IMG/VR virus record: IMGVR_UViG_3300043449_000416
Coordinates: 1 to 60,451 of that record
Source: a virus
Strand: one strand, 5' to 3'
DNA length: 60,451 bases
Numbering within the stretch: position 1 is the first letter of the stretch; each line of letters opens with the position of its first letter. The translations under genes and the position numbers were made by a program. Shown one piece after another: positions 9,664 through 48,064 of this stretch. The notes below the pieces were generated by a model. It did not search any database. It was not told the DNA's origin and worked only from the letters and a program-made list of their open reading frames with translations.

Positions 9664-10482
9664 TCACGCCGCGATGGTTGTCCAAATGGTCGGTGGAGTC
9701 GGCCCCACCGCTGTCCATGAATTTATAGCATCTGGATTGACTTCCGTCCATGTCGAACCGGGATTTGGCACGATACTGCCCCAAACTGTCGCCTGACCAA
9801 TACGGCCAGTGGCACTAACACCGAGCGGAATGACGTTAGCAGAGCCTGTGGCACCAAGGGTGCCGATTGCGCCAGTGGCAGAAACACTAGTAACTGCGGC
9901 GTTAACGTCGATAACTACAAGCACATTTCCGACTGCGTTAGTAGCAGAAACACCGACTAAAGTTAGGTTCGCATCGGCAGACACTGTAGCGTCGCCAACT
10001 TGACCTGTACCGCTTACGCCGGACACAAGGGCGTTAGCAGAGACCGTTACGGTAACGGTACCCACAAAACCACTTGCCACGACACCTTCAATGTCTGGGA
10101 ATACGGCGCTACCAAGCTGCCCGGTCGCTACCACTCCCGTAGGTGAAACGACGGCGGACCCAGAAACAGTAGGCGTTCCTGTCTGACCTGTCGCGGATAC
10201 ACCAACAAGAGAAGCTGTGACTGCTGCGCTTACAGCTACGGAGCCTACGGCACCTGTAGCCGCGACACCTGTGGGTGTGGTAACAGCACTGCCTGTTAGT
10301 GTAACGGAGCCTACGGCACCTGTAGCCGCGACACCCGTGGGTGTGATAACAGCGTTACCCGTTGCCGTAATGGAGCCTATAGAACCTGTAGCCGCAACAC
10401 CCGTAACAAGAACGGTGACGTTAACCGCCACTACCCCTATGTCGGCGAGGGGGGAAGATGCAAGTGGCGTAAAGCCTAGCAT
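9664..10482 (-). CDS. Repeat-containing fibre-like protein
   Basis: 272 aa with tandemly repeated peptide units (VAATGAVGSVTLTGSAVTTPTG...), mirrored by tandem nucleotide repeats. Confidence 0.45.
   Translation of the reverse strand: MLGFTPLASSPLADIGVVAVNVTVLVTGVAATGSIGSITATGNAVITPTGVAATGAVGSVTLTGSAVTTPTGVAATGAVGSVAVSAAVTASLVGVSATGQTGTPTVSGSAVVSPTGVVATGQLGSAVFPDIEGVVASGFVGTVTVTVSANALVSGVSGTGQVGDATVSADANLTLVGVSATNAVGNVLVVIDVNAAVTSVSATGAIGTLGATGSANVIPLGVSATGRIGQATVWGSIVPNPGSTWTEVNPDAINSWTAVGPTPPTIWTTIAA
10234..10347. repeat. Tandem roughly 57-bp direct repeat inside the fibre-like gene
   Basis: Unit gagcctacggcacctgtagccgcgacacc(t/c)gtgggtgtg(g/a)taacagc occurs twice in succession, with partial flanking copies. 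Confidence 0.6.
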
Positions 10483-17201: not shown

Positions 17202-17771
17202 CTAGAGCCTGTTACTTTTGGAGCTGTTTTCTATGTGCGTGAGAATCTGTAAGTTCCACGGAACGTGAAGACCGCAAACGACTTCGGAGCGGAGTGGTAT
17301 AATGTGGTCGACGACATGCTTGATTCCGGTGTCGCGGGTAAGCCTGCGTGCCGCGAGATACATCTCACGAATTTGTAGCTTGTGCTCCGCGGTCAACCAC
17401 GGGGGCGAAGCGTTTCTAAGTCGCCGACGCCTGACGTTAACACCCAGCTGGACGTAGTCTGGGTTTCTAGCCTTCCACGCCCGCTTGTATTCACGGGTAG
17501 CTTCGGCAGACTGACTGGTGGCGCGGGCTAAAACTAACTCGCGATTGCGCTCATAATACCGACGACCCGCTGCCTTGGCAGCGTCGGATTTAGGCTGAGA
17601 TTTCCGACGCTCGTTATCTGTGGCCCAGTCCTCTTTCATGCACTCCACACAGGCACCCTTGGTTTTGCGTGGGGCTACGTGCCCACGCACGCAGGGCTCG
17701 CCGGTGAAGTAGTGTGTTGCGCCAAGAGCTTTGGCTTCTTTGCGGGTCTTTGGATATTCCATTTGCGCCAC
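17202..17771 (-). CDS. HNH endonuclease (free-standing, with N-terminal Cys-rich motif)
   Basis: C-terminal HVDHIIPLRSEVVCGLHVPWNLQILTHIENSSKSN is an HNH signature; N-terminus has a CxxxH...CxxC cluster. Confidence 0.75.
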   Translation of the reverse strand: MAQMEYPKTRKEAKALGATHYFTGEPCVRGHVAPRKTKGACVECMKEDWATDNERRKSQPKSDAAKAAGRRYYERNRELVLARATSQSAEATREYKRAWKARNPDYVQLGVNVRRRRLRNASPPWLTAEHKLQIREMYLAARRLTRDTGIKHVVDHIIPLRSEVVCGLHVPWNLQILTHIENSSKSNRL

Positions 17772-17878
17772 CTGTGGTTTTTGACACGGGTAACGTAAAC
17801 GGCGTAATGGCCGCGGTCAAGCGCAAAAGAAAAGGCCCGCCGAAGCGGGCCTTAACTCTGCTAAGTGCTTGATTTTCC

Positions 17879-18784
17879 TCAAGCGCCGGGAGAAGCGTAC
17901 ATCGCCAGCGGGTCGGAAACGCCGAAACTGTAGCGCTCCCTTGCTTTGTACCTCACGTTGCCAGTGTCAAAATCCCCGTCCATTGAAGTCGACATAGCGA
18001 CGCGAACGAAGTGCTTCATACCATTCGGGATGTCGGTGGTGAGGTACCACGCGTCATTGTCCGTCAGGTAGTGGTTGACGCGATACCCCTCGGGGATGGA
18101 CCCGTTGTTGTTAAGCGCGTTGATGTCGTTATCGGCGGTGCCGACACGCAGCTCGGTCTGCAGCAGACGAGTTGCAACAAACATCAGGCTCGGCGGAACA
18201 ATCAGCTTGCGCGGACGGGCAGCGATCAACAGACCACGTTCGTCTTTGTAAGCAGCGATGTCGATAACCGCTTGTTCCAGCGAGGTCTCGTTGAGGTCGG
18301 TGTCAACCGAAGGACGGTTGGCGTTAGTGCCGCCCGCAACGGTAGGGTGCGCGTTGTTGAACAAAGTTACGCCGTCACCCGAGGTGAAGGTCGTAAAGCC
18401 CGTATTCAGCAGCGAAGCAGCCTTGACCTGCTTGGTGTACGCCATGGCGCGAGCGAGCGCCTTGGTGTAGCGAGCCGAGAGCGAGTCGTACAGGTTGTCT
18501 TCCATAGCTTCTTCGGTGATCGAGAAGCCCATGGCCACCGTCTCGTGATTGTAACGAGCGGTGAACGATTCCTGTGCGTTGTCATACGAGATGGCAGAGC
18601 CTTCCGGTTTCACCGGAGCTGCGCCGAACCCGCTGAGCTTAACTTCCTCTTCAAAGCTACGCTCCGAAGTCTCGGTCTCATAAAACTCAGCATGCTCGTT
18701 TTCGTATTTGCCGTATTCAAGACCGAACAGGGCGTTAAGGCCCGGAAGCAGTTCTTTAAGGGCCTGTGCGCGTGAAATAGCCAT
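17879..18784 (-). CDS. Putative major capsid protein
   Basis: 301-aa ORF directly downstream of the scaffold-like gene; composition and position are consistent with an HK97-fold capsid protein. Confidence 0.5.
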   Translation of the reverse strand: MAISRAQALKELLPGLNALFGLEYGKYENEHAEFYETETSERSFEEEVKLSGFGAAPVKPEGSAISYDNAQESFTARYNHETVAMGFSITEEAMEDNLYDSLSARYTKALARAMAYTKQVKAASLLNTGFTTFTSGDGVTLFNNAHPTVAGGTNANRPSVDTDLNETSLEQAVIDIAAYKDERGLLIAARPRKLIVPPSLMFVATRLLQTELRVGTADNDINALNNNGSIPEGYRVNHYLTDNDAWYLTTDIPNGMKHFVRVAMSTSMDGDFDTGNVRYKARERYSFGVSDPLAMYASPGA

Positions 18785-18797: not shown

Positions 18798-19397
18798 TTA
18801 CACGCCAACCGCAGCGGTCAGCTGCGTGTAGTTAAGTTTTACGACCAGCAGCGGGTACGTGGTACCAGCTTCGCCACCACGAGGGCCACCGACGTAGTCG
18901 ATGATTCGCAGAGGGAGGTTGGCGTCGGTGCTGAGAGTGGTCGCGTCGAGTGCAACGCGCGAGGCCTTGAACGTGGTGTTCACAGCGCCTTGGACAATAG
19001 CGGCGTTCTTGCCGTAGATGTCCAGCGAGTTGGTGATGGCCGCAGATGCCTGCACGACGTACAGCGCCTGCGGGTCGTCAACTACGAATGCCAGAGCATC
19101 CGAAGCGACAGTGCCGGTCGGCCACATGTTCGAGAACGTGATTTGGCCGGTCGACGGGTCAGTATACGAGCAGCCGACAAACACACCGAGCATAGCAATA
19201 TCGGTCGACGTGTCGCCCGTACCGGTCTGCTTGGTGATCGTTGTCGAAGTGCCGTTGTCAACGAGGTTGACGATATCTCCGGCGGCAATGTTGACAGCAA
19301 GGCCCGAAGCGATGGGATACTGGCGGAAAACCTCCAGCGAACCATTGTCGAGACGGCCAGTCACACGCAGACCGAAGGGAGCGTTAAGGGAACCCAT
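18798..19397 (-). CDS. Hypothetical capsid-associated protein (199 aa)
   Basis: ORF between scaffold and capsid genes. Confidence 0.4.
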   Translation of the reverse strand: MGSLNAPFGLRVTGRLDNGSLEVFRQYPIASGLAVNIAAGDIVNLVDNGTSTTITKQTGTGDTSTDIAMLGVFVGCSYTDPSTGQITFSNMWPTGTVASDALAFVVDDPQALYVVQASAAITNSLDIYGKNAAIVQGAVNTTFKASRVALDATTLSTDANLPLRIIDYVGGPRGGEAGTTYPLLVVKLNYTQLTAAVGV

Positions 19398-19435: not shown

Positions 19436-19882
19436 TCACTTGCCGAACGAGGTCTTGGTTGAACGCTCGGGCCGAAGCACCGGCATTCGCGGGTCGTTTT
19501 CACGCATAAAGTTCCGGTCGACAGCGTCGATCTGATTCTGCGCGATCTCGAGTTGGCCCTCTACACGTGCCTGTACGTCCTCAGCGGGCGCAGCACAGAG
19601 TAGGAGACCTCCGACTTCGACATTGCCTTTAAAGCGGGAGTCGACATCGGACATAATTTGCAGCTCGGGATAGTCAGCGGCCATCACTGGCGCATAACCT
19701 TCTCGGAACCGTGCGGAGACATTCGTCATGTCTGCGTTACCCAGTGTAGAGGTGCGAATCCATCGGAACTTCAAGCCGTCCCGAGGCTCGGGGGTAGGCA
19801 GCATGGATTGCCGCTTCCACGTTTTTTTGCGAGGACTCGTGTTTTCACGAGTTTCGAGAGTACGTGGGGTCCGGTCAGCCAT
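19436..19882 (-). CDS. Hypothetical protein (148 aa)
   Basis: ORF in the head-morphogenesis block. Confidence 0.4.
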   Translation of the reverse strand: MADRTPRTLETRENTSPRKKTWKRQSMLPTPEPRDGLKFRWIRTSTLGNADMTNVSARFREGYAPVMAADYPELQIMSDVDSRFKGNVEVGGLLLCAAPAEDVQARVEGQLEIAQNQIDAVDRNFMRENDPRMPVLRPERSTKTSFGK

Positions 19883-20795
19883 TTTGCATATCCTTTAGCT
19901 TCTGCGCCGCGAATATTTTAAGCGGTACCCCAAGACGCTTGGCGAGAGCGGCCTCAGAGGAGGTTAGCACAACCTTGCGCGGTGCTTTCGTGCTGCGAGC
20001 AGCCGGGGCGACCACGGTACCAGCCTGACGTCGGGGTGCTTTTTCCTCAATGAGCCCGTCGTCAAACCTGTCTGGAAACGTGCGGCGAACCGCGTCGTCT
20101 ATCTTAGAATAATACAAATCGCTCTGCGGATCAATTCCCTGTGCTACGAGGTCCTCATGGACGCCCATAGCGAAGCCGGTCATCGATTTGTCCTTCATGA
20201 ACCAAGAGTTCTTATCGGCCCATTGCATCGCCCGATCATCAGGCTTTGCCACTTTAGGAGCGGCCTGCTGTTGGGTCTGCGGCACAGGAGCGGTGGCCTG
20301 CGCGGCGCGCGGTCTGTAGTTCTGCACTCGGTCGGCCTCGACCTGCAGCTTGAGCAGTTTCTCTTGCGCAGCGAGAACAGCGTCAGCGTCGCCGCTCTCG
20401 TAAGCCGACTTATACGCGGTCCGCGCGGATGAGAGTTCGCTCTCAAGGCGGGCCTTGGTCTGTCCGACAAAAGCAGTCTCGCCATCAGCGTAAGCCTTAC
20501 GAAGCTCCTCGTTCTCCCTACGAATCTTTTCGGCGTAGGAGATGGCCTCCTCACGGAGACGGACAGCTTCTTCCTTGGCGCGACGCTCAGCGTGCTGATC
20601 GAACTTGAGCTTGTTGATGCGTTTTTTGACGCTATCAGAGTAACCCTCTAGGTCGTCATCATCGGCACCTTTGGTCTCAACCTCAGAAGCTTTCGGTTTG
20701 CCTCGGTCTTGCTCAGGGGTATCATCCTGAACCTCAATTTCGAGCTCGTCATCGTTCTCGATGTCAACTTCGATGTCATCATTCTTGTCGCTCAT
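19875..20795 (-). CDS. Putative scaffolding protein
   Basis: 306 aa; highly acidic N-terminus (DDIEVDIENDDELEIEVQDD), predicted helical charged core; lies between portal and capsid. Confidence 0.5.
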   Translation of the reverse strand: MSDKNDDIEVDIENDDELEIEVQDDTPEQDRGKPKASEVETKGADDDDLEGYSDSVKKRINKLKFDQHAERRAKEEAVRLREEAISYAEKIRRENEELRKAYADGETAFVGQTKARLESELSSARTAYKSAYESGDADAVLAAQEKLLKLQVEADRVQNYRPRAAQATAPVPQTQQQAAPKVAKPDDRAMQWADKNSWFMKDKSMTGFAMGVHEDLVAQGIDPQSDLYYSKIDDAVRRTFPDRFDDGLIEEKAPRRQAGTVVAPAARSTKAPRKVVLTSSEAALAKRLGVPLKIFAAQKLKDMQNG

Positions 20796-21160
20796 GCTCG
20801 GCTGTACCCCCGTGGGTCTTCGACAACCGCCTCAACGGTGTCATCATTAATGAGACGGAACTCTTTGCCCAGAACTTTGAATCTGGTTCCTGAGTAGGAG
20901 CGGAAGATGACGAAGTCGCCCTCTTTGCACCAAGGTCCGTTTGGGAATTTGTTGAGATCGGCGTATGCGTCAGGTCCCACCTTGACCACAAATCCAACGA
21001 TGGACGCCGTTTCCTCAGCTTTTTTAAGCTGGTCCGGCATGTAGATTCCGCCTTCGGTTTTCTCGCTGACCTCTGGGACGGCGATCAGTAGCCTATAGCC
21101 CGATGGTTCCGGCAGCTTAGCCTTTAGCTGCTCGTCTTCGACTTTATTAGCCGTATACAT
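20792..21160 (-). CDS. GroES/Cpn10-like co-chaperonin
   Basis: Pattern GYRLLIAVPEVSEKTEGGIYMPDQ...IVGFVVKVGP...GDFVIFRSYSG...FRLINDDTVEAVV follows the GroES beta-barrel signature (ektxGGI, VxAVGxG, GDxVxF). Confidence 0.55.
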   Translation of the reverse strand: MYTANKVEDEQLKAKLPEPSGYRLLIAVPEVSEKTEGGIYMPDQLKKAEETASIVGFVVKVGPDAYADLNKFPNGPWCKEGDFVIFRSYSGTRFKVLGKEFRLINDDTVEAVVEDPRGYSRA

Positions 21161-21239
21161 AGTGCCTCCTGCAGTGATTAAGGCTCACAGCGCCTTGCGC
21201 GGGACATCCGCGTAACTCAAAGAAATATAGCGGATAGTA

Positions 21240-21431
21240 TCAGTCCGCAATAAATCTTTTCTCTAGGTCCTTTACGTCATCGTACATGCGCTGGAGCGCC
21301 GTATATTCCCCGACGCTCCGGCAATAATCCTCATAGCTCTTGGCACCGCCCGTTGCGAGGTGGTGCTCAATGGCTGACTTCTGCTCGTTCAGACCGCGAA
21401 TCATAAAGGCAAAGATGGTATCTTCCATCAC
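21240..21431 (-). CDS. Hypothetical small protein (63 aa)
   Basis: ORF with 4-nt overlap to the portal stop. Confidence 0.35.
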   Translation of the reverse strand: MMEDTIFAFMIRGLNEQKSAIEHHLATGGAKSYEDYCRSVGEYTALQRMYDDVKDLEKRFIAD

Positions 21432-23917
21432 TGGCCCCCAGCGTTAGGCGATTTGCGCGCTTGGAGCAGCCGTGCCGCCTCGATGGCGAGGCGCGTGCCA
21501 TCCATCTGAGCTTTGACATTCTCTTTCGCAGCGTCAGTGGCAAGCTTTGCCATGGTGTTTGCCGCGGATCGGTCGTTCTCGCTCTCGACACGCTCCTGCT
21601 GGATGTAGAGGTTTCCAGCGCTGGTGGCGGCGCTGACCTGCAGTTTCTTGTTGTCGAAGTCGATCTTGTGCTGCAGTTCTTTCTCTTTGATGTCCAACTC
21701 GCGCATCTGGATGATAGTGAGCGGGTCCTGTGCCTGCTGCTCTGCCGTAGCGGCCTGCTGCTCTGCCTGATTCTTGTTGAACAGCTTGGCTGCGGCCTGA
21801 GCAACCATACGGGACAGCTGCACCTCGACTTCCTCGGGCAGCGGCTCGCCCTCGGGCGGCAGCGGAACACCGAGGTTCATCTCGATCTCTTTGCGATACT
21901 GATAGGCAACGTGCTCGGTAATATGCGCCATGGCAGCCCCTTGAATAGCCTGCGCGAAGGGCGACTGGCCGACCATCTGAGCAATCTTCGGGTCCTGCAT
22001 CGCGGCCATGTGGGCAGCAATATGTGCTTCGTGGTCTTGGTAGAGGAACGCTTTGACAGGGGACTGCTGCAACAGCGCCATATTCTCGGCCACTGGGTCC
22101 ATGGGCTTCATATCTGCCGGAGACTTAATGATGTCCTTAGCGTCTTGGATGCCCAGCACCTCGAGCATCTGTGAGTGCAGCTTGCCCATATCGTACAGCT
22201 GCGGAGCCTGCTGTGATAACTGCAGCGCGGCCTGATACTGCATGATCCGCTGCGCCATGGTGGCGGCGTTAGGATCAGATACCGGGATTATATCCACGCG
22301 CCCATCAAAGTCCTCGATGCGGTTGAAGTCACCGTCCATCTCGTAGGCATACTGCTCTGGCATGTAGTCATGCACGATCCGCGCGAGGATGCGTAGTTCC
22401 TGCTTCATAGCTGCGTGCAGGCGGGCTTGAACACCCGACATAACCTTCAAACTGCGCTCGAGCAGGGCGAGCGTGGTACCCACCGGTGCGTTTGCACTCA
22501 TGTCACCCACTTGGATGTCAGCCACGGAGCCGATGCGACGGCCTTCCTCAACCACGTTACCCAGCAGGGTATACAGGACGCTCGATGGCTCTTTGTACGG
22601 CATCGGGAACAGGCTCTCGCGGAGCGTACCTCCCGTCACGTCAGCGTCTCTCCACTCACCGGGCATCAGCGGGGTGTTGTCACCCTTGATGCGCAGGCTC
22701 CGGGCCTTGAGGCCCGCTGGGAGGTTAGACAGGGTGCCCGCATCGATGAGCTGCCGCAGGATTGACGTCGCAGACTTAGCCAGACCGCCGATCAGATGAA
22801 TTAGTCCCGTACCGTAGAACCCCATACCCGGCAGGTAGGGGTAGTGGGTGAAGTGCATCAGCTTGCGCTTCTTCGCGTCATCTTCCTTCCAGTTACGGCG
22901 GATAGCGAGAACAGTCCGAGAGGTCTTGTCGATTGTGATGACGTAAGGCCGTGCCACGCCATCCTCATCCTCGAACGGCTCCGGCAGGTCGATGTCCACG
23001 TGCATTTCCAAGAGTGTACGGCGCGGATCATCCTCGAATGTCTGCTCCTCCCCCGCCAGCTCGGCGTATTTCTCCTCGATGTCGGTGAGGTCTTTCTCCG
23101 CATCAGGCAGCTCGACATCGCGGTAGAAGCCAACAACCTGCAGCTCACGGACCTCATTGTCGGTCTTCTTCATCACATGTGTGAACCGTGGGCAGACGCG
23201 CAGGTTAGACGCGCCGTAGGAGACCACGAGGTCCTCAGCAGGAACAAAAATGGATGAGGGGAGCTCTGTGATGGGATCGTAGTATGTCTTCTTGAACGCT
23301 GACCCGGCCAGCGGGAGGCGGAACAGCATCAGCTCCATCTCGTCGCGGTAGTCCGGCATCTCCTCAGTGATGAGGTAGTTCATCTCATTCTGGACGCGGT
23401 TAGCTTGGTCAGCCTTCTCGGGGGTAAGTTTACCCATGATCTTTGTCCGTACCGGCCCCGAGGCGGGCATCAGCTCGCTCATTGCCTGCGCTTGGAACCG
23501 CACCACGGCCTCGGTCAGCATCGGGTGATAGACACCGGAGGCACCGGCCCAAGGCTGCGTGCGGTCCTCGATCTTCATCCCCAGCAAGTCCAAGCCGGTA
23601 ATATAGGCCGACGCCCAGTCCTTGCGGCTCTCACGATCAGAGAGAAAAGATCCAACCAGCTCACTGGCGATACTCTCAAGCTCCCCATCGTCAATGATTT
23701 CGGCGAGGTTGGTGTCGTGGGCGGTCATGTCCGCGCCCGTATCGTCCTCACCATCGCCGAAGTCGACTAGGACCTCACCGGTATCCGCATCGATTTGGAT
23801 TGATGGGTCTTCTTCCGTCGCGATGGATACTTCAATCTCGGTATCGTCCTGCGGCCCGAACTCGAACGGCGTCATCGGCTTCTCGATTGCCATGGCATAT
23901 CCCCTGTAGGTCTCCAC
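21428..23917 (-). CDS. Putative portal protein
   Basis: 829-aa ORF immediately downstream of the terminase gene; size and position are typical of portals. Confidence 0.55.
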   Translation of the reverse strand: METYRGYAMAIEKPMTPFEFGPQDDTEIEVSIATEEDPSIQIDADTGEVLVDFGDGEDDTGADMTAHDTNLAEIIDDGELESIASELVGSFLSDRESRKDWASAYITGLDLLGMKIEDRTQPWAGASGVYHPMLTEAVVRFQAQAMSELMPASGPVRTKIMGKLTPEKADQANRVQNEMNYLITEEMPDYRDEMELMLFRLPLAGSAFKKTYYDPITELPSSIFVPAEDLVVSYGASNLRVCPRFTHVMKKTDNEVRELQVVGFYRDVELPDAEKDLTDIEEKYAELAGEEQTFEDDPRRTLLEMHVDIDLPEPFEDEDGVARPYVITIDKTSRTVLAIRRNWKEDDAKKRKLMHFTHYPYLPGMGFYGTGLIHLIGGLAKSATSILRQLIDAGTLSNLPAGLKARSLRIKGDNTPLMPGEWRDADVTGGTLRESLFPMPYKEPSSVLYTLLGNVVEEGRRIGSVADIQVGDMSANAPVGTTLALLERSLKVMSGVQARLHAAMKQELRILARIVHDYMPEQYAYEMDGDFNRIEDFDGRVDIIPVSDPNAATMAQRIMQYQAALQLSQQAPQLYDMGKLHSQMLEVLGIQDAKDIIKSPADMKPMDPVAENMALLQQSPVKAFLYQDHEAHIAAHMAAMQDPKIAQMVGQSPFAQAIQGAAMAHITEHVAYQYRKEIEMNLGVPLPPEGEPLPEEVEVQLSRMVAQAAAKLFNKNQAEQQAATAEQQAQDPLTIIQMRELDIKEKELQHKIDFDNKKLQVSAATSAGNLYIQQERVESENDRSAANTMAKLATDAAKENVKAQMDGTRLAIEAARLLQARKSPNAGGQ

Positions 23918-24201
23918 GAGACCTTAGCACGAGGTGTTAAAGCTCGCAATGTAGTTGCGAGGGGCGCTAGATTTCTATTGATGAGCCGTAGCGCAGTCTA
24001 ATCAATTTCGACCAAAGATACCGTTCCGCTTTTTTGATGCAGTTGTGTATATGCGCCCCCGCAGTCCTTCGTACCGCTATGCTACGATGAATACAATACT
24101 CTTCAATAAAAAAACCCGGCGGGAGAGGACCGCCGGGCTAGTTCCAAGGAGCCAACGCATAAGGAGGAGAAAACGTTGACGCGAATAGTGTAGCACGGGC
24201 T

Positions 24202-26688
24202 CTAGTAGTAATCAACTTTTCTTCTGTATGGCAGCTCTTCATCCAGCTCATCTGTCGGCAGGCGGATGAACCCCCCTTGGCGGAACCGCATCAGGGCCAT
24301 TATTGTCGTGTCGCAGTTGTGGACCAGCACACCGTTAGCGTAGTAGCAGTGAGTGTCAGCTACCGTCAGGTTGTATACTGGCTTTTTCTCTTCTCCTACG
24401 TTTATACTGTCTACTTGCGCACGTGTTGCCGCAAAGTTCGGCCCGGCCAGAAGACGATAGAAACTGCGTACTGCACTCCTTACAGGTACGGATAACCGGG
24501 TTTTCAGCCTGCTCTTTGAGCTTTTTCTCTCTAGCCTCACGGGCGGCCCCACCAAGTTTAAGGTACTTAGCTGTGCGATCTCTGTGCCAAGCTCTACCTT
24601 CCTCTGAACGGTGCCACTCGCTCGCCTTGCCACGAACCCTGTTAAGCAGGGCAAGTTGCTCGGGGCTTCTCGCTCTAATGCTGCGCTCTTCGGAGTGGCG
24701 TCTGCAGTGCTCTTCGCGAGATACGCACTCAAGGTTAGTGACGCCGTTGTTATCCCAATTTCCGTCCTTGTGGTGAACCTCCCAGCCGTCTGGAATAGGC
24801 CCATTGTGGAACTCCCACACAGCGCGGTGCAAGTTGAACCCTCCGGCTCGCTGAAAATACTTCCGAAGAGACGCTCTCGGAGAGTTCGGATAGCGGTTGT
24901 AAGTGTAGCCGTTGAACACAACAGACTCCGTGTGAACTTCTGGTTTAGTCGGCCACGGCATTTGCGCCCCCATTGCTTGGTCACCTTTACTGTATCAGTC
25001 ACAGTAATAGTGTCAAGACGCTTCCACCCGCACGTTGTGGCGATTGGGTGGTTCCCGGTGCCTTCCAGAGTGTGGCCTCCAGCGCGCAGAATAAATGTAT
25101 TTCGCACCCCTGTGCAACCTGCGGCCTGTACCACTTTCGCCCCCGCTGGCGTTTTAACGACGTCCCCGATCTTTATTGTTTCAATAGGTTGCTCTATTCC
25201 ATCAGCCATCAGAACTTGCGTTCCGGCTACAAAACAGTGGTCGTCGTTTTCAGCGAACGGGAATCCTGCAACTTCCTCGACCAGCTCCTCTGCCCACCGT
25301 TTAGGCGGCACCCAGACCAGCCCCGAGGAGATGATATCAGACACAGAGTTCAGACGCGCCATCTTGCTATTCGGGTTGTTTACCGAGCCCCTGACAGGGG
25401 TGTACTCCTGCACCATGAGCCCCGAGCGGCGCATCTCCTGATACAACGGCGTCCCCGAACTCTTTTTCTCGACGATGAACACGTCGGGTTCCCACTGCTG
25501 ATACTCCTCCAGAGCCAACGCTTTGAGCTCTGGAAACTCCATGCGCCGCTTGATGGCATTGAGCAGGATGATCTGGTGCATGTTCTCCTCGTCATTGAAG
25601 AACACTCCCCACGTTGTCAGAGACGTGAAGTCAGCCCGGTTGTGGGCTTCTGCAGCGGCGTCGAGAGACATGATGATATACTCTACAGCCGGTGGGTCGT
25701 CGTCTGGCCACAGCCGCCACCAATCTCTCTTGATTATGGCAGCTTCTTCGCCCGTCGGATTCTGCTGATACTGCGCGTTCCACTGGAACACCGGCATGGA
25801 GGCCTTGGTCCGCAGCAGTGCTTGTAGATCAAAAAACTCAGGCCAGAGGGCTCTTTGAATTATATTTTCTTCACCAGTGACGTTGTCTTTCTGGACTACG
25901 TCTAAAATAGCCGGAAACTCCACCACCTCATATTGGTCGGAGTTCTCGTTGTTGGCCATATCTTGAATAAGGCGTCCTGTTAGATCTTTTTTATGCCATC
26001 TTGTATGGACCACGGCCACGCGCCCCCCGGGCATCAGACGCGTCCGGGCCCCGAAGGCGAACCATTCGTAAGCTTTGTCGAATGCCGTGAAGTTTCCGTT
26101 CAAGATATCCTGCTCGGAGTGCGGGTCGTCGACGAGCAGCAGGTCAGCGCCGCGGCCCGCGAGGGCCGATCCCACGCCCGTGGCGTAAAACTCGCATCCT
26201 GTGGTCGTGTTCCAGCGCCCAGCCGACTTGCTGTCAGAGGACAGCGCGAGGTTCGGGAAGACCTGCTGGTAGGGCTCAGAGTCGATGATATTCCGCACCT
26301 TCCGACCGAAATCGACGGCTAGGTCCGTCGTATGCGAGACCAACATGACCTTTTTCCCGGGGTTTCGACCGATGAACCATGCAGGATAGTAGGTTGAGAC
26401 GAGCTGAGACTTGCCGTGGCGGGGTGGGATGTTGACGCAGACCCTGTCTTTGTCCCCCCGCTCGATGTCCATGAGCTCATCCGCTAGAATTCTATGGTGT
26501 CGGCCCACCTTATAGGTACGGTCCATATACTTACAGAAGGCAATCAGGTCATCCTTGGCACCCTGCAGCGTGGCGCGCTTGTCCAACTCCTCGAGCATTT
26601 TCTCGATCTCGAGCAGTTCCTGCTCGTCGAGCATATCCACGCTCTTGAGGAGCGTTTCGAGCTCTGCTCGATTGAAGTCGGAGCTCAT
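24202..26688 (-). CDS. terL: Terminase large subunit, interrupted by an intein
   Basis: Walker A (IPPRHGKSQ), Walker B (ADLLLVDDPH) and a C-terminal nuclease region; intein blocks CFVAGTQVLMADG... (A), TGNHP (B) and ...YYANGVLVHN/CDTTI (F/G). Confidence 0.85.
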   Translation of the reverse strand: MSSDFNRAELETLLKSVDMLDEQELLEIEKMLEELDKRATLQGAKDDLIAFCKYMDRTYKVGRHHRILADELMDIERGDKDRVCVNIPPRHGKSQLVSTYYPAWFIGRNPGKKVMLVSHTTDLAVDFGRKVRNIIDSEPYQQVFPNLALSSDSKSAGRWNTTTGCEFYATGVGSALAGRGADLLLVDDPHSEQDILNGNFTAFDKAYEWFAFGARTRLMPGGRVAVVHTRWHKKDLTGRLIQDMANNENSDQYEVVEFPAILDVVQKDNVTGEENIIQRALWPEFFDLQALLRTKASMPVFQWNAQYQQNPTGEEAAIIKRDWWRLWPDDDPPAVEYIIMSLDAAAEAHNRADFTSLTTWGVFFNDEENMHQIILLNAIKRRMEFPELKALALEEYQQWEPDVFIVEKKSSGTPLYQEMRRSGLMVQEYTPVRGSVNNPNSKMARLNSVSDIISSGLVWVPPKRWAEELVEEVAGFPFAENDDHCFVAGTQVLMADGIEQPIETIKIGDVVKTPAGAKVVQAAGCTGVRNTFILRAGGHTLEGTGNHPIATTCGWKRLDTITVTDTVKVTKQWGRKCRGRLNQKFTRSLLCSTATLTTAIRTLRERLFGSIFSEPEGSTCTALCGSSTMGLFQTAGRFTTRTEIGITTASLTLSAYLAKSTADATPKSAALEREAPSNLPCLTGFVARRASGTVQRKVELGTEIAQLSTLNLVGPPVRLERKSSKSRLKTRLSVPVRSAVRSFYRLLAGPNFAATRAQVDSINVGEEKKPVYNLTVADTHCYYANGVLVHNCDTTIMALMRFRQGGFIRLPTDELDEELPYRRKVDYY
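24316..25236 (-). other. Intein within terL (aa 485-791 of the precursor)
   Basis: N-terminal Cys after ...FAENDDH, C-terminal HN followed by +1 Cys; boundaries computed from the ORF. Confidence 0.75.
24356..24973 (-). CDS. HNH endonuclease ORF nested inside the terL intein, in a different reading frame
   Basis: HRAVWEFHNGPIPDGWEVHHKDGNWDNNGVTNLECVSREEHCRRH is an unambiguous HNH motif; the ORF exactly fills the gap between the intein N- and C-terminal splicing blocks and has a GGTGA-like RBS upstream of its ATG. Confidence 0.7.
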   Translation of the reverse strand: MGAQMPWPTKPEVHTESVVFNGYTYNRYPNSPRASLRKYFQRAGGFNLHRAVWEFHNGPIPDGWEVHHKDGNWDNNGVTNLECVSREEHCRRHSEERSIRARSPEQLALLNRVRGKASEWHRSEEGRAWHRDRTAKYLKLGGAAREAREKKLKEQAENPVIRTCKECSTQFLSSSGRAELCGNTCASRQYKRRRREKASIQPDGS

Positions 26689-30947: not shown

Positions 30948-31311
30948 ACCGAGAAAACATAGCCACTGGGCCGCTAGGCCGCGGCTAAAATTCCTCGGGG
31001 GCGTAGCCGAATTTGACCTGTGGTGGAGGGACGACCAGTCAGCGCCGGGTATCCCGAGCGGCGACATCCTGCCGTATTTGCGCTTGGTGACTATAGATAT
31101 GCCATCCGTAGACGACTGGGACGAGCTCCGCGTACCGCTGCATCTGAACGAGGAGACGAACTCAAGTATGGAGCCCGCGATGCGCAGACTCAAGGGCAGG
31201 TGGGGCTGTATAAATCTGACCCTAGCGCAGCTGGCCGAGATACGCACATACCTGCAATGCTTCGCCCCGTGGGTGTTAGGAGGAAGGCTAACAGATGGTC
31301 AACAAACATAA
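30940..31311 (+). CDS. Hypothetical protein (123 aa), paralog of 33211..33516
   Basis: Shares EPR...WAAR...FLGG...FDLW(W/F) and L..L...YL..FAPWV motifs with the 33211 ORF. Confidence 0.5.
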   Translation: MLEPRKHSHWAARPRLKFLGGVAEFDLWWRDDQSAPGIPSGDILPYLRLVTIDMPSVDDWDELRVPLHLNEETNSSMEPAMRRLKGRWGCINLTLAQLAEIRTYLQCFAPWVLGGRLTDGQQT

Positions 31312-31564
31312 CGGCAGCGGCAGCGGCTACGGCAGCGGCAGCGGCACCGGCAGCGGCACCGGCTACGGCAACGGCAGCGGCTACGGCAGCGGCAGCGGCA
31401 CCGGCTACGGCAACGGCAGCGGCTACGGCTACGGCACCGGCACCGGCTACGGCAGCGGCAACGGCAACGGCTACGGCGACGGCAGCGGCAACGGCTACGG
31501 CAGCGGCAACGGCAACGGCTACGGCGACGGCAGCGGCAACGGCTACGGCGACGGTAAGGGTTAG
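31295..31564 (+). CDS. Gly/Ser/Tyr/Asn-rich low-complexity repeat protein (89 aa)
   Basis: Translation is almost entirely (GSG/GNG/GYG)n, encoded by tandem ggcagcggc/tacggc/aacggc units; AGGAGG RBS upstream. Confidence 0.5.
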   Translation: MVNKHNGSGSGYGSGSGTGSGTGYGNGSGYGSGSGTGYGNGSGYGYGTGTGYGSGNGNGYGDGSGNGYGSGNGNGYGDGSGNGYGDGKG

Positions 31565-31604
31565 CGGATGGTCAATTCTAAAACTTGAAACTTAACAAAG
31601 GGTG

Positions 31605-45358: not shown

Positions 45359-45621
45359 TTGCCATGCCATACACGAAGTCGCCGCGTCCTTATAAGGCCG
45401 AATACCAGAAACAAATAGAACGTGGTGAGCACCCGGACCGCATGGAGCGGCAGCGTGCTCGGCGTGCCTTGGACAAGAAGGGCGTTGACCGCACAGGCAA
45501 GGACGTGAGCCACAAGAAAGCGTTGGCCAAGGGGGGCAGCAACGCTGACGGCTATAAGCTAGAGAGCCCCTCGAAGAACCGTAGCCGGAACGGCCATAAA
45601 CCCGGTGAGAAAAAAGGTTAG
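45355..45621 (+). CDS. Small basic hypothetical protein (88 aa)
   Basis: Arg/Lys-rich ORF ATGA-coupled to the upstream gene. Confidence 0.4.
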   Translation: MIAMPYTKSPRPYKAEYQKQIERGEHPDRMERQRARRALDKKGVDRTGKDVSHKKALAKGGSNADGYKLESPSKNRSRNGHKPGEKKG

Positions 45622-45634
45622 GGAAAACCCTAAC
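45617..45634. repeat. GTTAG-N-CTAAC hairpin family member (perfect palindrome)
   Basis: gttagggaaaaccctaac, immediately upstream of the helicase start. Confidence 0.6.
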
Positions 45635-45649
45635 GTCTCGGAGAACGAT

Positions 45650-48064
45650 ATGCAGATCATTGATAATAAGGCGTTGCTTCTCAAGCTACGCAATCCAAAA
45701 CAAGTCACTACGATCATCCCTAAGAGTCGCGCTATCAGCGAGCACGAGGTCATTGTAAACTGGGGCGTACAGGAAACGCACACTCTACGTGGGCTGAACA
45801 TCAAGGTGCCGTCACCCATCGAAGGTCGCTATAACTGGACGGGCAAGTTCGCCCCAATGGCGCACCAGCGCACGACAGCATCTTTCCTGACCATGTACCA
45901 GAGAGCGTTTTGCTTCAACGAAGCCGGGACTGGTAAGACGGCTAGTGCGATCTGGGCTGCAGACTTCCTCATGAAGCAGGGTATCATCAAGCGTGCCTTG
46001 GTCATATGTCCGCTCTCGATCATGGACAGCGCGTGGCGCGCGGACTTGTTTACGTTTGCCATGCACCGGACTGTAGACATCGCCCATGGTACCGCAGACA
46101 AACGTAAGAAAATCATCGCTCGGAAACCTGATTTCCTCATCATCAACTACGACGGTGTTGAGATTGTCAAAGAAGACATCGCGGCGGCGGGCTACGACCT
46201 CATTATCGTTGACGAATGCTTTGTTGCTGGCACCCCCGTGCACACCCCGAACGGTATAACGGCGATTGAGAAGCTCAAAGTAGGAGATGCGGTGTTTACA
46301 AGTGATGGGGTACGTAATATAAAAACGGTATCCAAGCGAAAACCAAACAGTCTTGTGGAGGTAAAATTTGATACCGGGGAAATACTTACATGCACACCAG
46401 AGCATCCTTTCTTCACTGACTGGGGTTGGGTGCCCGCCAGAGCTCTTGGGGGTAGACGCATCGTGTCTTTATCTGCGCTGTCCGATCTGCGGAAACCACT
46501 ACAAAGTGGCCCAGAGCAAATGGCGCTTTCACCGGAAGACAAAAACACACACTGGGATGACCTGTGCTCGATCCTGCGGTCGGAAGAGGTGGCATCTCCT
46601 GCACCCGGGTCAGTCAGCGCTAAAGTTTCTGACTGTGGAGCAGAGGGCGAAGGGGGTTCGGTCTGGGTTTCACCGTACACCAGAGCAGCGCGAGCACTTA
46701 TCGAAGGTGGCGATATCGAAAGGGATTCGTCCGATGGTTCGTGGCGGCAACGGTACGGGCATGACTGGGGCGGAGACGTTGCTAGCGGCGCAGCTTCCGG
46801 CTGGTTGGCGATGGAACTTCCAAATAGCGTTGGGCAAGAGGCTTCCCGGCTATCCTACGAATTACAAACTCGACTTCGCGTGGCCGGAGAAGAAACTTGG
46901 GTTGGAAGTGGATGGAGGCAGCCATCGCACGACGAAGGCTCAGGAGAGGGACAGGAAGAAAACGGAAAAGCTTTCGGAATTAGGGTGGGAAGTGTTACGT
47001 ATAGAGAACCGGGATGCGACGAATACGTCTACAACCTCGAAGTTGATGGAACTCCTAACTACTTTGTTGGGGGACAACGAGCACTAGTACACAACTGCAG
47101 CCACTACAAGAATGCTCAGAGCAAGCGCTGGAAGGTGCTGAACTCGCTGGTTAAGCCCGAGACGTGGCTCTGGATGATGACGGGTACCCCGGCGGCACAA
47201 GGGCCCGAGGATGCTTTCGGCTTAGCGAAGCTGGTAAACCCGACGGGTGTGCCTAAGTTCTTCAACGCTTGGAAGGACATGGTGATGTACAAGGTATCTC
47301 AGTACCGCTGGAAACCCAAGGAACACTCTGAGCATACCGTGCATCGGGCCCTGCAGCCCGCAATTCGCTACACCAAGGAAGAATGCTTAGACCTACCAGA
47401 TATGCTCTACGTTAAACGAGACGTGGCGCTGACCAAGCAGCAGGAGCTCTACTACAATCGCCTCAAGAAGCAGATGGTCATGGAAGTGGCTGGGGCGCAG
47501 ATCACGGCGGTAAACGCTGCGGTGATGATGGGCAAACTCCTGCAAATCTCGGCGGGCGCAAGCTACACCGAATCCGGCGACACAGTGCAGTTCGATATCA
47601 ACAATCGCTACAGCGTCCTCAAAGAGGTCATCGCTGAGAGCACTCACAAGGTGCTGGTCTTTGTGCCTTTCAAACACGTGATAGAGATGTTGACCGCGCA
47701 GCTGACCAAGGATGGCATTACAAACGCTGTCATCAGCGGCGACGTAAAGGCTGGGGACCGAACTGACATCTTTAGGCAGTTCCAAAACCAACCTGACCCT
47801 AGAGTGCTGGTCATCCAACCGCAGGCTGCCGCACATGGCGTGACGCTCACTGCGGCGAATACAGTTGTCTGGTGGGCACCGACGTCATCGCTCGAAACCT
47901 ACGCACAGGCTAACGCCCGGGTGCACCGCAAAGGGCAATCCAACAAGTGCACCGTAGTTCAGCTGCAGGGGTCGGGCGTAGAGCGCAGGGTCTACAAGAT
48001 GCTCGACGAGAAGATTGACGTGCATACTAAGGTTGTCGATCTTTATAAAGAATTGCTTGACTAG
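45650..48064 (+). CDS. SNF2-family (DExH) helicase interrupted by an intein in motif II
   Basis: Motif I NEAGTGKT, motif II LIIVDE|C...HN|CSH (intein inserted), motif III MMTGTP, motif VI QANARVHRKGQ; start refined to the ATG at 45650. Confidence 0.8.
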   Translation: MQIIDNKALLLKLRNPKQVTTIIPKSRAISEHEVIVNWGVQETHTLRGLNIKVPSPIEGRYNWTGKFAPMAHQRTTASFLTMYQRAFCFNEAGTGKTASAIWAADFLMKQGIIKRALVICPLSIMDSAWRADLFTFAMHRTVDIAHGTADKRKKIIARKPDFLIINYDGVEIVKEDIAAAGYDLIIVDECFVAGTPVHTPNGITAIEKLKVGDAVFTSDGVRNIKTVSKRKPNSLVEVKFDTGEILTCTPEHPFFTDWGWVPARALGGRRIVSLSALSDLRKPLQSGPEQMALSPEDKNTHWDDLCSILRSEEVASPAPGSVSAKVSDCGAEGEGGSVWVSPYTRAARALIEGGDIERDSSDGSWRQRYGHDWGGDVASGAASGWLAMELPNSVGQEASRLSYELQTRLRVAGEETWVGSGWRQPSHDEGSGEGQEENGKAFGIRVGSVTYREPGCDEYVYNLEVDGTPNYFVGGQRALVHNCSHYKNAQSKRWKVLNSLVKPETWLWMMTGTPAAQGPEDAFGLAKLVNPTGVPKFFNAWKDMVMYKVSQYRWKPKEHSEHTVHRALQPAIRYTKEECLDLPDMLYVKRDVALTKQQELYYNRLKKQMVMEVAGAQITAVNAAVMMGKLLQISAGASYTESGDTVQFDINNRYSVLKEVIAESTHKVLVFVPFKHVIEMLTAQLTKDGITNAVISGDVKAGDRTDIFRQFQNQPDPRVLVIQPQAAAHGVTLTAANTVVWWAPTSSLETYAQANARVHRKGQSNKCTVVQLQGSGVERRVYKMLDEKIDVHTKVVDLYKELLD
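46217..47095 (+). other. Intein within the SNF2 helicase gene (aa 205-497 of the track ORF)
   Basis: N-terminal CFVAGTPVHTPNG...TCTPEHPFFT (blocks A/B); C-terminal EYVYNLEVDGTPNYFVGGQRALVHN followed by Cys. Confidence 0.75.
46368..47087 (+). CDS. Vsr-like (DUF559-type PD-(D/E)XK) endonuclease ORF nested in the helicase intein, in a different frame
   Basis: C-terminal YKLDFAWPEKKLGLEVDGGSH...ERDRKKTEKLSELGWEVLRI matches the Vsr/DUF559 nuclease signature; upstream CPICG zinc motif and a NUMOD-like segment (GFHRTPEQREHLSKVAISKGI). Confidence 0.6.
   Translation: MIPGKYLHAHQSILSSLTGVGCPPELLGVDASCLYLRCPICGNHYKVAQSKWRFHRKTKTHTGMTCARSCGRKRWHLLHPGQSALKFLTVEQRAKGVRSGFHRTPEQREHLSKVAISKGIRPMVRGGNGTGMTGAETLLAAQLPAGWRWNFQIALGKRLPGYPTNYKLDFAWPEKKLGLEVDGGSHRTTKAQERDRKKTEKLSELGWEVLRIENRDATNTSTTSKLMELLTTLLGDNEH

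What the first reader, a model, noticed from the sequence alone, without database searches (positions are those of the whole stretch)
20792..21160. GroES-like co-chaperonin encoded between portal and scaffold genes
The 122-aa product follows the GroES/Cpn10 signature (ekTxGGIxxP...VVxVGP...GDxVxF...), suggesting a phage-encoded co-chaperonin assisting capsid protein folding, analogous to T4 gp31. No GroEL-like partner is encoded, so it would use the host GroEL.
Basis: partly seen in the sequence, partly recalled or inferred. Interest (0 to 1): 0.5.

Follow-up and report, generated by a model that had tools for sequence, protein, structure and literature searches.

The report
Phage GroES co-chaperonin in head operon
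This uncultured phage carries its own copy of the small chaperone lid GroES among its head-building genes, presumably to use the host's GroEL to fold head proteins; this gene family has already been described in aquatic phages, so the finding is correct but ordinary.

Summary
The ORF is real: window 20792..21160, minus strand, 122 aa, with an AGGAGG ribosome-binding site. Its stop overlaps the start of the next gene (ATGA).

- **Family and fold.** It matches Pfam Cpn10 over the whole profile (E 1.5e-13, 51 bits against a cut-off of 21.1) and PHROG 'co-chaperonin GroES'. An AlphaFold2 model (pLDDT 82) matches only GroES/Cpn10 and T4 gp31 structures in the PDB.
- **GroEL-binding loop.** The motif G37-G38-I39-Y40-M41-P42 aligns exactly with E. 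coli G23-G24-I25-V26-L27 and lies in a low-confidence, flexible loop.
- **No GroEL.** The contig is complete (127-nt terminal repeat) and encodes no GroEL.
- **Context.** The gene sits in a terminator-flanked block: portal, 62-aa ORF, GroES, scaffold-like, 148 aa, 199 aa, major capsid protein. The order recurs in phages reported on Planktothrix/Synechococcus, SAR11, Roseobacter and Caulobacter, and in 55 of 55 testable IMG/VR relatives.
- **Selection.** dN/dS is about 0.02-0.04.
- **Prior work.** Marine et al. 2017 described this GroES > 'kinesin-like' > head-protein arrangement. It is a core gene of HTVC023P-type pelagiphages. The identical protein is already annotated as GroES.

GroEL binding, heptamer formation and capsid clients remain untested. 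Verdict: interpretation supported; a new member of a known kind; low interest.

The parts
20792..21160 (-). GroES/Cpn10-family gene, 122 aa, 13.6 kDa, pI 5.1
   Evidence: ORF. Pfam PF00166 E 1.5e-13, covering profile positions 4-93 of 93. PHROG 3188. AF2 model with GroES fold. It is the only Cpn10-like ORF in the window.
21165..21170 (-). Shine-Dalgarno-like AGGAGG, 4 nt upstream of the ATG
   Evidence: Read directly from the sequence.
21110..21160 (-). N-terminal extension (residues 1-17) absent from cellular GroES; predicted helix at residues 3-15
   Evidence: Alignment to E. coli GroES. DSSP on the model. The extension varies in length (about 10-60 aa) and is poorly conserved across the viral family.
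20999..21073 (-). Mobile-loop equivalent (about residues 30-54), 4 residues longer than in E. coli or T. thermophilus GroES
   Evidence: HMMER alignments to solved GroES. Lowest pLDDT of the model, 52-54 for residues 31-50. Alignment A5.
21038..21046 (-). Hydrophobic tripeptide I39-Y40-M41, preceded by G37-G38, aligned to the GroEL-binding I25-V26-L27 of E. coli GroES
   Evidence: Among 120 close relatives G37, G38 and P42 never vary, and positions 39-41 vary only among V/I/L, F/Y/I and M/V (R in 5).
20921..20974 (-). Roof-hairpin-equivalent segment (residues 63-80, PDAYADLNKFPNGPWCKE), carrying the family-specific conserved residues Y66, F72, P73, W77 and C78
   Evidence: Conservation across 127 representatives clustered at 50% identity. 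pLDDT about 97 but no regular strand in the model.
20792..20795 (-). ATGA overlap: the GroES stop (TGA) overlaps the start (ATG) of the scaffold-like gene
   Evidence: Sequence and ORF coordinates. The same 4-nt overlap occurs in relatives L007-L010. Translational coupling is inferred.
19875..20795 (-). Scaffold-like protein, 306 aa: acidic N-terminus, long helices, basic C-terminal helix-turn-helix (the 'kinesin-like protein' of database annotations)
   Evidence: PHROG 28737, unknown function. No Pfam or PDB match. Charge profile. Single-sequence AF2 model with helices 49-134, 137-158, 279-288 and 292-305. Conserved C-terminus.
21240..21428 (-). Conserved 62-aa ORF between portal and GroES; its ATG overlaps the portal stop by 1 nt (TGATG)
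   Evidence: It is called as a 62-aa gene in relatives. It is weakly conserved in seven related loci: six phage records (five cultured phages and one metagenome-assembled genome) and one MAG contig.
21428..23917 (-). Portal protein (829 aa from the GTG; 821 aa from the ATG that relatives use)
   Evidence: PHROG 1216 portal, E 5.8e-38. Relatives.
19436..19882 (-). Conserved 148-aa basic protein of the head block, function unknown
   Evidence: PHROG 36003. Synteny. No PDB match.
18798..19397 (-). Conserved 199-aa protein of the head block, function unknown
   Evidence: PHROG 37556. Synteny. No meaningful PDB match.
17879..18784 (-). Major capsid protein, 301 aa, 33 kDa (Mu gpT-like / Phage_capsid_4); candidate GroEL client
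   Evidence: Pfam PF25209 E 8e-15 and PF10124 E 2e-10. PHROG 371. Its role as a client is inferred only.
24113..24139 (-). Terminator-like hairpin upstream of the portal gene (start of the head block)
   Evidence: 10-bp stem with 8 GC pairs plus a T-run. This is a consensus match only.
17832..17853 (-). Terminator-like hairpin just after the capsid gene (end of the head block)
   Evidence: 9-bp stem with 7 GC pairs plus a T-rich tail. This is a consensus match only.

Best explanation
The gene encodes a divergent, virus-lineage member of the Cpn10/GroES family. It is made from the late head-morphogenesis block (portal, 62-aa ORF, GroES, scaffold-like, 148 aa, 199 aa, capsid) and is probably translationally coupled to the scaffold-like protein. 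By analogy with GroES it should form a heptameric dome whose flexible loops dock their G-G-I-Y-M-P segment onto the apical domains of ATP-bound host GroEL. That would close the folding chamber for phage head proteins; the 33-kDa capsid protein is small enough for a normal cage. The phage thereby supplies or retunes the lid while borrowing the host's GroEL. Shown here: family membership, fold, retention of the GroEL-binding motif, absence of a phage GroEL, obligatory linkage to the head module, and strong purifying selection. Inferred: heptamer formation, GroEL binding, and capsid proteins as clients.
For: - Pfam Cpn10 E 1.5e-13, 51 bits against a gathering score of 21.1, full profile coverage. 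PHROG 'co-chaperonin GroES' E 8.9e-16.
- All ten PDB sequence matches are Cpn10, GroES or Cpn20/23.
- AF2 model with pLDDT 82 and pTM 0.75, with a disordered loop at residues 31-50. The 34 best Foldseek PDB matches are GroES/Cpn10 chains (TM up to 0.77 on the target), followed by T4 gp31. BFVD top hits are 'Co-chaperonin GroES [uncultured virus]'.
- The residues invariant between seven phage-type homologues (the window gene plus six from GenBank phage records) and E. coli GroES are the classic GroES ones: P19, K34, G37, G38, V58, G62, G81, D82 and G91. I39-Y40-M41 aligns with I25-V26-L27. In 120 close relatives these positions change only among hydrophobic residues, apart from R at position 41 in 5.
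- dN/dS is about 0.02-0.04.
- No GroEL: Pfam scans of every ORF of at least 400 aa, tblastn with E. coli GroEL finding nothing below E=5, and a complete genome (127-nt terminal repeat).
- The gene order is conserved in six GenBank phage records, five with reported hosts in different bacterial groups, and in 55 of 55 IMG/VR loci.
- ATGA overlap with the scaffold-like gene. Terminator-like sites bracket the block.
- Literature: the same arrangement and the same inference appear in PMC5649160. It is a core gene of HTVC023P-type pelagiphages (PMC9599517).
Against: - There is no experimental evidence for any member of this viral family, so function rests on homology.
- Scores are far below the NCBIfam GroES cut-offs (best 46.6 bits against 96), so it is not an equivalog of cellular GroES.
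- The best-conserved residues of the viral family lie outside the mobile loop: Y66, C78, R102, D106 and D107, with F72 and W77 also strongly conserved. This hints at a family-specific constraint.
- About 30% of family representatives have Lys at the third position of the tripeptide (also noted in PMC5649160). This gene does not.
- A 33-kDa capsid protein does not need an enlarged cage, so the T4 gp31 rationale does not transfer, and why the host GroES would not suffice is unexplained.
- The predicted roof segment shows no regular hairpin.
Confidence: 0.65

Rival explanations
1. The protein is a GroEL co-chaperonin, but not a capsid-specific one. It acts as a general takeover or auxiliary factor: it raises lid supply or out-competes host GroES so that host GroEL capacity goes to the bulk of late phage proteins, or it keeps the chaperonin working while host chaperone expression falls during infection.
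For: Same family, fold and loop evidence as the main explanation. The capsid protein is only 33 kDa and fits an ordinary cage, so no special lid geometry is needed. Host chaperone and folding-catalyst genes are down-regulated during HTVC027P infection of SAR11 (PMC12753301). PMC5649160 raises a global folding role.
Against: An accessory metabolic-type gene would be expected to be sporadic and to move around the genome. Instead it is fixed next to the scaffold-like gene in 55 of 55 loci and in phage records with very different reported hosts. In this clade it also overlaps that gene's start codon.
Confidence: 0.17
2. The protein has a GroES fold but works independently of GroEL. It would be a dedicated head-assembly factor that binds the scaffold-like or capsid protein. 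Alternatively, its loops cap a different seven-fold ring of the host, as the chloroplast Cpn11/20/23 co-chaperonin does on ClpP.
For: The strongest conservation in the viral family lies outside the mobile loop (Y66, C78, R102, D106, D107). About 30% of representatives have Lys in the tripeptide. Linkage to the scaffold-like gene is strict and includes the ATGA overlap. The best PDB sequence match is Chlamydomonas Cpn23, from an entry described as a ClpP complex (7ekq). That co-chaperonins cap ClpP there is my own recollection of that study, not something tested here.
Against: The canonical GroES residues and the G-G-hydrophobic tripeptide-P motif are retained and kept hydrophobic among close relatives. 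The loop is predicted to be flexible as in GroES. No evidence places the protein in virions or procapsids.
Confidence: 0.1
3. The ORF is a decaying or recently captured host groES copy with no role in the phage, or is not a real gene.
For: Nothing positive. It was considered only because E. coli GroES does not find it by tblastn.
Against: dN/dS is about 0.02-0.04. There are 6572 homologues, and the best 120 are all 122 aa and at least 87% identical. There are 2773 clusters at 50% identity. The nearest relatives are viral long forms, not cellular GroES. The gene has a strong ribosome-binding site and conserved synteny.
Confidence: 0.01

Closest known systems
Virioplankton 'GroES-only' co-chaperonins (Marine et al. 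2017, PMC5649160), including the GroES of HTVC023P-type pelagiphages, roseophages CRP-901/902, Planktothrix phage Pag-Yong1 and Caulobacter phage RW
   Same: Same protein family (57% identity to Pag-Yong1, 41% to HTVC027P, 33% to CRP-902 and RW). Same long form with an N-terminal extension. Same gene order, GroES then 'kinesin-like' about 300 aa and then the head protein. No GroEL in the genome. It is a core gene in HTVC023P-type phages.
   Different: This is a separate, uncultured lineage with 55-57% G+C, and no DNA-level match to any GenBank phage. The hydrophobic tripeptide is fully canonical (I-Y-M), unlike the roughly 23-30% of viral sequences with a polar third residue. In this clade the GroES stop overlaps the next gene's start.
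Cellular GroES / Cpn10 (Pfam PF00166; E. coli GroES, T. thermophilus Cpn10 4v4o, M. tuberculosis Cpn10 1p3h)
   Same: Profile match over the whole domain. Beta-barrel fold. Conserved P, K, GG, G, GD and G residues and an aligned GroEL-binding tripeptide. Roof-hairpin segment of similar length.
   Different: Only about 25-32% identity. It falls below all NCBIfam GroES cut-offs. It has a 17-aa N-terminal and an 8-aa C-terminal extension, and the mobile loop is 4 residues longer. Family-specific residues Y66, F72, W77, C78, R102, D106 and D107 are conserved. It is not in a groES-groEL operon and sits among phage head genes.
Bacteriophage T4 gp31 (PDB 1g31, 2cgt) and RB49 CocO
   Same: A phage-encoded lid for the host GroEL, with no phage GroEL, linked to head morphogenesis, and a GroES-like fold (Foldseek E 3e-3).
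   Different: gp31 has no detectable sequence similarity to GroES, lacks the roof hairpin and has a longer loop that enlarges the cage for the 56-kDa gp23 (established knowledge). The window protein is a sequence-level Cpn10 member, keeps the roof segment, and has a capsid protein of only 33 kDa. It shares 15% identity with gp31 over the structural alignment.
Viral GroES-GroEL operons and phage GroEL (Pseudomonas phage EL gp146, Cellulophaga phages)
   Same: Phage-encoded group I chaperonin components (PMC5649160).
   Different: Those phages carry the large subunit. This complete genome has none.

Membership tests
Cpn10 / GroES (Pfam PF00166) | Sequence matches the family profile above the curated gathering score over the whole domain | tested here: met
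   51 bits against 21.1, E 1.5e-13, profile positions 4-93 of 93. PHROG 3188 E 8.9e-16.
Cpn10 / GroES (Pfam PF00166) | GroES beta-barrel fold | tested here: met
   AF2 pLDDT 82, pTM 0.75. The 34 best Foldseek PDB matches are GroES/Cpn10 chains, followed by T4 gp31; probability 1.00, target TM 0.6-0.77.
Cpn10 / GroES (Pfam PF00166) | Flexible mobile loop carrying Gly-Gly followed by a hydrophobic tripeptide that binds GroEL | tested here: met
   G37-G38-I39-Y40-M41 aligns to G23-G24-I25-V26-L27. pLDDT is 52-54 in the loop. Substitutions among 120 relatives stay hydrophobic, apart from R at position 41 in 5. Met at sequence and prediction level only.
Cpn10 / GroES (Pfam PF00166) | Roof beta-hairpin closing the dome | tested here: inconclusive
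   A segment of similar length is present and is modelled with pLDDT about 97, but DSSP shows no strands there. Its sequence is unlike cellular roofs and is highly conserved within the viral family.
Cpn10 / GroES (Pfam PF00166) | Homo-heptameric ring | not testable with these tools
   Only single-chain prediction is available. The N- and C-terminal strands that form the GroES subunit interface are conserved (G21, L25, V109-V113), but this is indirect.
Cpn10 / GroES (Pfam PF00166) | Nucleotide-dependent binding to GroEL and assistance of folding; complementation of groES | not testable with these tools
   Needs biochemistry or genetics. The papers retrieved here that mention this viral family report no functional test of it.
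Cellular GroES equivalog (NCBIfam PRK00364 models) | Score above the curated equivalog or subfamily cut-off | tested here: not met
   Best score is 46.6 bits against a cut-off of 96 (NF001531). All 15 GroES models are hit below their cut-offs. It is therefore a divergent family member, not an equivalog of the cellular protein.
Cellular GroES equivalog (NCBIfam PRK00364 models) | Encoded in a groES-groEL operon | tested here: not met
   No Cpn60 domain in any ORF of at least 400 aa. tblastn with E. coli GroEL gives nothing below E=5. The genome is complete.
Virioplankton GroES-only family (Marine et al. 2017; HTVC023P-type core gene) | Cpn10 gene without GroEL, followed by a 'kinesin-like' coiled-coil protein of about 300 aa and a phage head protein | tested here: met
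   Window gene order. The same order occurs in six GenBank phage records and in L007-L010. 55 of 55 IMG/VR loci. Description in PMC5649160.
T4 gp31 family | No GroES sequence similarity; roof hairpin absent; extended mobile loop; required for a large (56 kDa) capsid protein | tested here: not met
   The window protein is a Cpn10 sequence member, keeps the roof segment, and has a 33-kDa capsid protein. The structural match to 1g31 is weak (E 3e-3, 15% identity). It may work like gp31 but is not a member.

The most novel reading that the evidence does not exclude
The long-form viral GroES may be more than a spare lid for GroEL. It could be a head-module protein with its own binding surface, formed by the family-specific residues Y66, F72, W77, C78, R102, D106 and D107. 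That surface might couple the scaffold-like or capsid protein to a host ring, either delivering clients to GroEL or capping another seven-fold machine such as ClpP. This would make it an obligatory assembly factor that co-evolves with this capsid type across many host phyla.
Probability: 0.1. Interest if true: 0.55.

Novelty: new member of a known kind. Interest (0 to 1): 0.2.

Why it matters
It matters little for discovery. The gene family, its lack of a GroEL partner and its position next to head genes were described in 2017 and are routinely annotated; the identical protein is already labelled GroES by JGI. What this analysis adds is modest. The gene is a fixed part of one capsid module (55 of 55 relatives) in phage records with very different reported hosts, is under strong purifying selection, and in this clade overlaps the start of the scaffold-like gene. 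The open question is why so many abundant aquatic podoviruses need their own GroES for an ordinary 33-kDa capsid protein. No member of the family appears to have been tested. Cultured relatives on tractable hosts, such as the Caulobacter phages, would make that test straightforward.

Tried and rejected
- GroEL gave nothing, which is informative. GroES did not find the gene either, so BLAST-level search is too weak for this family and profile methods were needed.
- **megablast of the 10-kb head region against GenBank phages.** No match.
- **PDB sequence searches with the scaffold-like, 148-aa, 199-aa and capsid proteins.** Nothing usable, so their roles stay positional.
- **Promoter scan.** Five sites against 2.9 +/- 1.8 expected, which is not meaningful. 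Only the two strong terminator-like hairpins were used.
- **Literature search for Pag-Yong1, MinM2, Pra-JY27 and DSL-LC04.** The held library says nothing about GroES in those phages.
- **Concatenated 7-copy sequence as a surrogate heptamer, prepared.** Not submitted.
- **Prohead protease in disguise.** The gene sits where one often lies, but the full-length Cpn10 match and GroES fold rule this out.
- **Assembly frameshifts as the cause of the out-of-frame nuclease ORFs in the inteins.** Rejected.
Full report
**Observation**

It lies on the minus strand, starts with ATG and encodes 122 residues. An AGGAGG sits 4 nt upstream of the start. Its TGA stop overlaps the ATG of the next gene in an ATGA (20792-20795). 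The quoted motifs are all present: EKTEGGIYMP, VVKVGP and GDFVIF.

Upstream lies the portal gene (21428..23917; PHROG 1216, E 5.8e-38).

Downstream lie four genes:
- a 306-aa acidic, helical protein (19875..20795);
- a 148-aa ORF;
- a 199-aa ORF;
- a 301-aa Mu-gpT-like major capsid protein (17879..18784; Pfam PF25209 and PF10124).

Two strong terminator-like hairpins bracket this block, at 24139-24113 and 17853-17832, with no comparably strong one inside it.

**What the gene is**

- The protein matches Pfam Cpn10 (PF00166) with E 1.5e-13. The score is 51 bits against a gathering score of 21.1, and the match covers profile positions 4-93 of 93.
- It matches PHROG 3188, 'co-chaperonin GroES', with E 8.9e-16.
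- All ten significant sequence matches among solved structures are Cpn10, GroES or chloroplast Cpn20/23.
- An AlphaFold2 model built on 111 diverse family members has mean pLDDT 82 and pTM 0.75. Confidence drops to 52-54 at residues 31-50, where the GroES mobile loop lies.
- In the Foldseek search of the PDB, the 34 best matches are GroES/Cpn10 chains and ranks 35-36 are T4 gp31. Unrelated folds appear only at E > 0.3.
- In the viral structure library the best matches are 'Co-chaperonin GroES [uncultured virus]'.

**Anatomy relative to cellular GroES**

The invariant residues are the classic GroES ones: P19, K34, G37, G38, V58, G62, G81, D82 and G91. I39-Y40-M41 aligns with the GroEL-binding I25-V26-L27.

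Among the 120 closest database relatives (87-100% identical, all 122 aa), G37, G38 and P42 never change. Positions 39-41 vary only among V/I/L, F/Y/I and M/V, with R in 5 sequences.

The differences from cellular GroES are:
- a 17-residue N-terminal extension, predicted helical and poorly conserved in the wider family;
- a mobile loop 4 residues longer;
- an 8-residue C-terminal tail;
- a roof-hairpin segment of normal length but with a family-specific, highly conserved sequence (Y66, F72, P73, W77, C78);
- further strongly conserved residues R102, D106 and D107.

Scores against NCBI's cellular GroES models are significant but far below their cut-offs (best 46.6 against 96 bits). This is a divergent family member, not an equivalog of the cellular protein.

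**No phage GroEL**

Positions 1-127 repeat exactly at 60325-60451. The contig is therefore a complete, circularly closing genome of 60,324 bp. No ORF of at least 400 aa has a Cpn60 domain. tblastn with E. coli GroEL finds nothing below E=5. Only one Cpn10-like ORF exists in the window. Any chaperonin partner must come from the host.

**Selection and distribution**

- The word-indexed search found 6572 homologues.
- The exhaustive search found 2773 clusters at 50% identity with E <= 1e-3, and 647 with E <= 1e-10. Full-length members are 112-175 aa, longer than the roughly 95-100 aa of cellular GroES.
- dN/dS against relatives 89-90% identical is about 0.02-0.04, although dS is saturated.
- tblastn against GenBank phages finds annotated GroES genes in Planktothrix/Synechococcus phages Pag-Yong1, MinM2 and Pra-JY27 (57% identity), in DSL-LC04, in pelagiphages HTVC027P and HTVC023P, in roseophages CRP-901 and CRP-902, and in Caulobacter phages RW, KcrB, RLK and GB2A.
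- In all six phage records inspected, the order small ORF, GroES, about 300 aa, about 150 aa, about 190 aa, capsid protein is kept. The same holds in the closer contigs L007-L010.
- Using the capsid protein as bait in IMG/VR, at least 599 loci encode a relative. Among the best 80, 55 had at least 3 kb of upstream sequence, and all 55 carried the GroES-like gene directly upstream of the scaffold-like gene.

The gene is thus a fixed component of this head module, not a sporadic accessory gene.

**The 'scaffold'**

The 306-aa protein has no Pfam or PDB match, and its PHROG has no assigned function. It has:
- a very acidic first 50 residues (net charge -17);
- a basic last 56 residues (net +9);
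- a conserved C-terminus.

In a single-sequence AF2 model (pLDDT 69.5) it shows a disordered N-terminus, helices 49-134 and 137-158, and a terminal helix-turn-helix at 279-305. This resembles scaffolding proteins such as P22 gp8; that comparison rests on my own knowledge. The label is reasonable but inferred. Databases often call this protein 'kinesin-like'.

**Mechanism**

The best-supported reading is a phage-made GroES that caps the host GroEL. It would be expressed with, and in this clade probably translationally coupled to, the head-assembly proteins, to fold head components.

The steps shown here are:
- family membership;
- fold;
- loop motif;
- lack of a phage GroEL;
- linkage to the head module;
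- purifying selection.

The steps inferred are:
- heptamer formation;
- GroEL binding;
- the identity of the clients.

The T4 gp31 rationale, an enlarged cage for a 56-kDa capsid protein, does not transfer, because the capsid protein here is 33 kDa and the roof segment is retained. Why the host lid would not suffice remains unexplained.

The rivals are:
- a general rather than capsid-specific use of GroEL, supported by the down-regulation of host chaperone genes during HTVC027P infection;
- a GroEL-independent role, suggested by the strongest conservation lying outside the loop and by Lys at the third tripeptide position in about 30% of family representatives (PMC5649160);
- a non-functional ORF, which the conservation data exclude.

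**Comparison with the literature**

Marine et al. 2017 (PMC5649160) reported that GroES-only contigs dominate viral chaperonin genes. Of 976 such contigs, 53.6% have a kinesin-like gene downstream, followed by a head protein. They also noted that mobile-loop residues are usually conserved, and they proposed that the head protein relies on host GroEL as in T4.

The HTVC023P/027P GroES genes were tied to those clusters (bioRxiv 10.1101/2019.12.14.876532). GroES is one of 13 core genes of 82 HTVC023P-type genomes (PMC9599517). The identical protein is already annotated 'co-chaperonin GroES (HSP10)' by JGI.

The finding is therefore a correct recognition of a known kind in a new, uncultured lineage, with no DNA-level match in GenBank phages.

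**Side observation**

Both inteins of this genome carry a nuclease ORF in a different frame of the same strand, inside the intein, while the host-protein frame stays open across it.
- The large terminase (24202..26688, 828 aa against 517 aa in relatives) holds ORF 24356..24973, which matches HNH_3 with E 3e-16.
- The SNF2 helicase (45605..48064) holds ORF 46368..47087, which matches DUF559/Vsr-like with E 8e-9.

The architecture is kept in 73 of 80 related loci for the HNH ORF and 9 of 9 for the DUF559 ORF, at identities down to about 30%. In ordinary genes of this genome, none of 1166 alternative-frame windows of 615 nt stays open. So these are not assembly errors.

Out-of-frame homing endonucleases in inteins were described in 2025-2026. 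The two preprints read here call them rare (10.1101/2025.01.02.630785 and 10.64898/2026.09.14.751524). A third paper, PMC11855218, was seen only as a search listing. The present data suggest they are common in environmental phages.

**Verdict**

Function is plausible but untested. Novelty: a new member of a known kind. Interest is low (0.2).

Noticed in passing
window 24202-26688 (-) with nested ORF 24356-24973 (-); window 45605-48064 (+) with nested ORF 46368-47087 (+): Both inteins of the genome (in the large terminase and in an SNF2 helicase) carry a nuclease gene in a different reading frame of the same strand: HNH_3 (E 3e-16) and DUF559/Vsr-like (E 8e-9). The host-protein frame stays open across each. 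The architecture is kept in 73 of 80 and 9 of 9 related IMG/VR loci, at identities down to about 30%, against 0 of 1166 open control windows. Out-of-frame homing endonucleases in inteins were called rare in two 2025-26 preprints. Here they look common in environmental phages.
   Followed up: yes
window 1-127 and 60325-60451: An exact 127-nt direct repeat at the two ends of the contig is the usual signature of a circularly closing, complete assembly. The unit length is 60,324 bp.
   Followed up: partly
GenBank OQ594354.1, OL906435.1, PP438419.1 (locus L001 for one of them): Three phage records are attributed to different cyanobacterial hosts (Synechococcus phage MinM2, Planktothrix phages Pag-Yong1 and Pra-JY27). 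All are 65,014 bp and give identical GroES hits: 56.9% identity, the same E-value, at different start coordinates. They may be one phage, possibly of a co-cultured heterotroph, deposited three times.
   Followed up: no
viral GroES family (alignment of 127 representatives, query position 41): About 30% of family representatives have Lys at the third position of the GroEL-binding tripeptide, in line with Marine et al. 2017. The best-conserved residues of the family (Y66, C78, R102, D106, D107) lie outside the mobile loop. No explanation was found.
   Followed up: partly
window 17202-17771 (-): A 189-aa ORF sits just downstream of the capsid-gene terminator. It has an HNH-like look (…VDHIIPL…NLQILTHIEN…) but no Pfam match at E <= 0.01. 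Relatives have a 512-aa DUF723 protein after the capsid gene instead. It may be another mobile nuclease insertion.
   Followed up: no
window 31269-31610 and 36161-36261: There are runs of 12/18-nt and 6/12-nt G-rich tandem repeats inside ORFs. These give Gly-rich repeats in ORF 31020-31595 and a (GQ)n tract in the DUF2201 metallopeptidase/VWA protein 35686-36972.
   Followed up: no
window 10238-10369: A 66-nt tandem duplication (86% identity) lies inside ORF 9664-10482 (-).
   Followed up: no
window 52896-59213 (-): A 2105-aa ORF whose only Pfam match is the 'large polyvalent protein associated domain 39' (LPD39, E 1.7e-14). It is probably a giant virion or injected protein.
   Followed up: no
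locus L007 (NCBI GCA_041903705.1, contig JBBWVB010000072.1): A 17.7-kb contig made of this phage's head and packaging genes is binned in a genome assembly whose GroES protein NCBI labels Thiocapsa sp. N5-Cardenillas; that protein is 89% identical to the window's. This is either a host clue or a binning artefact.
   Followed up: no
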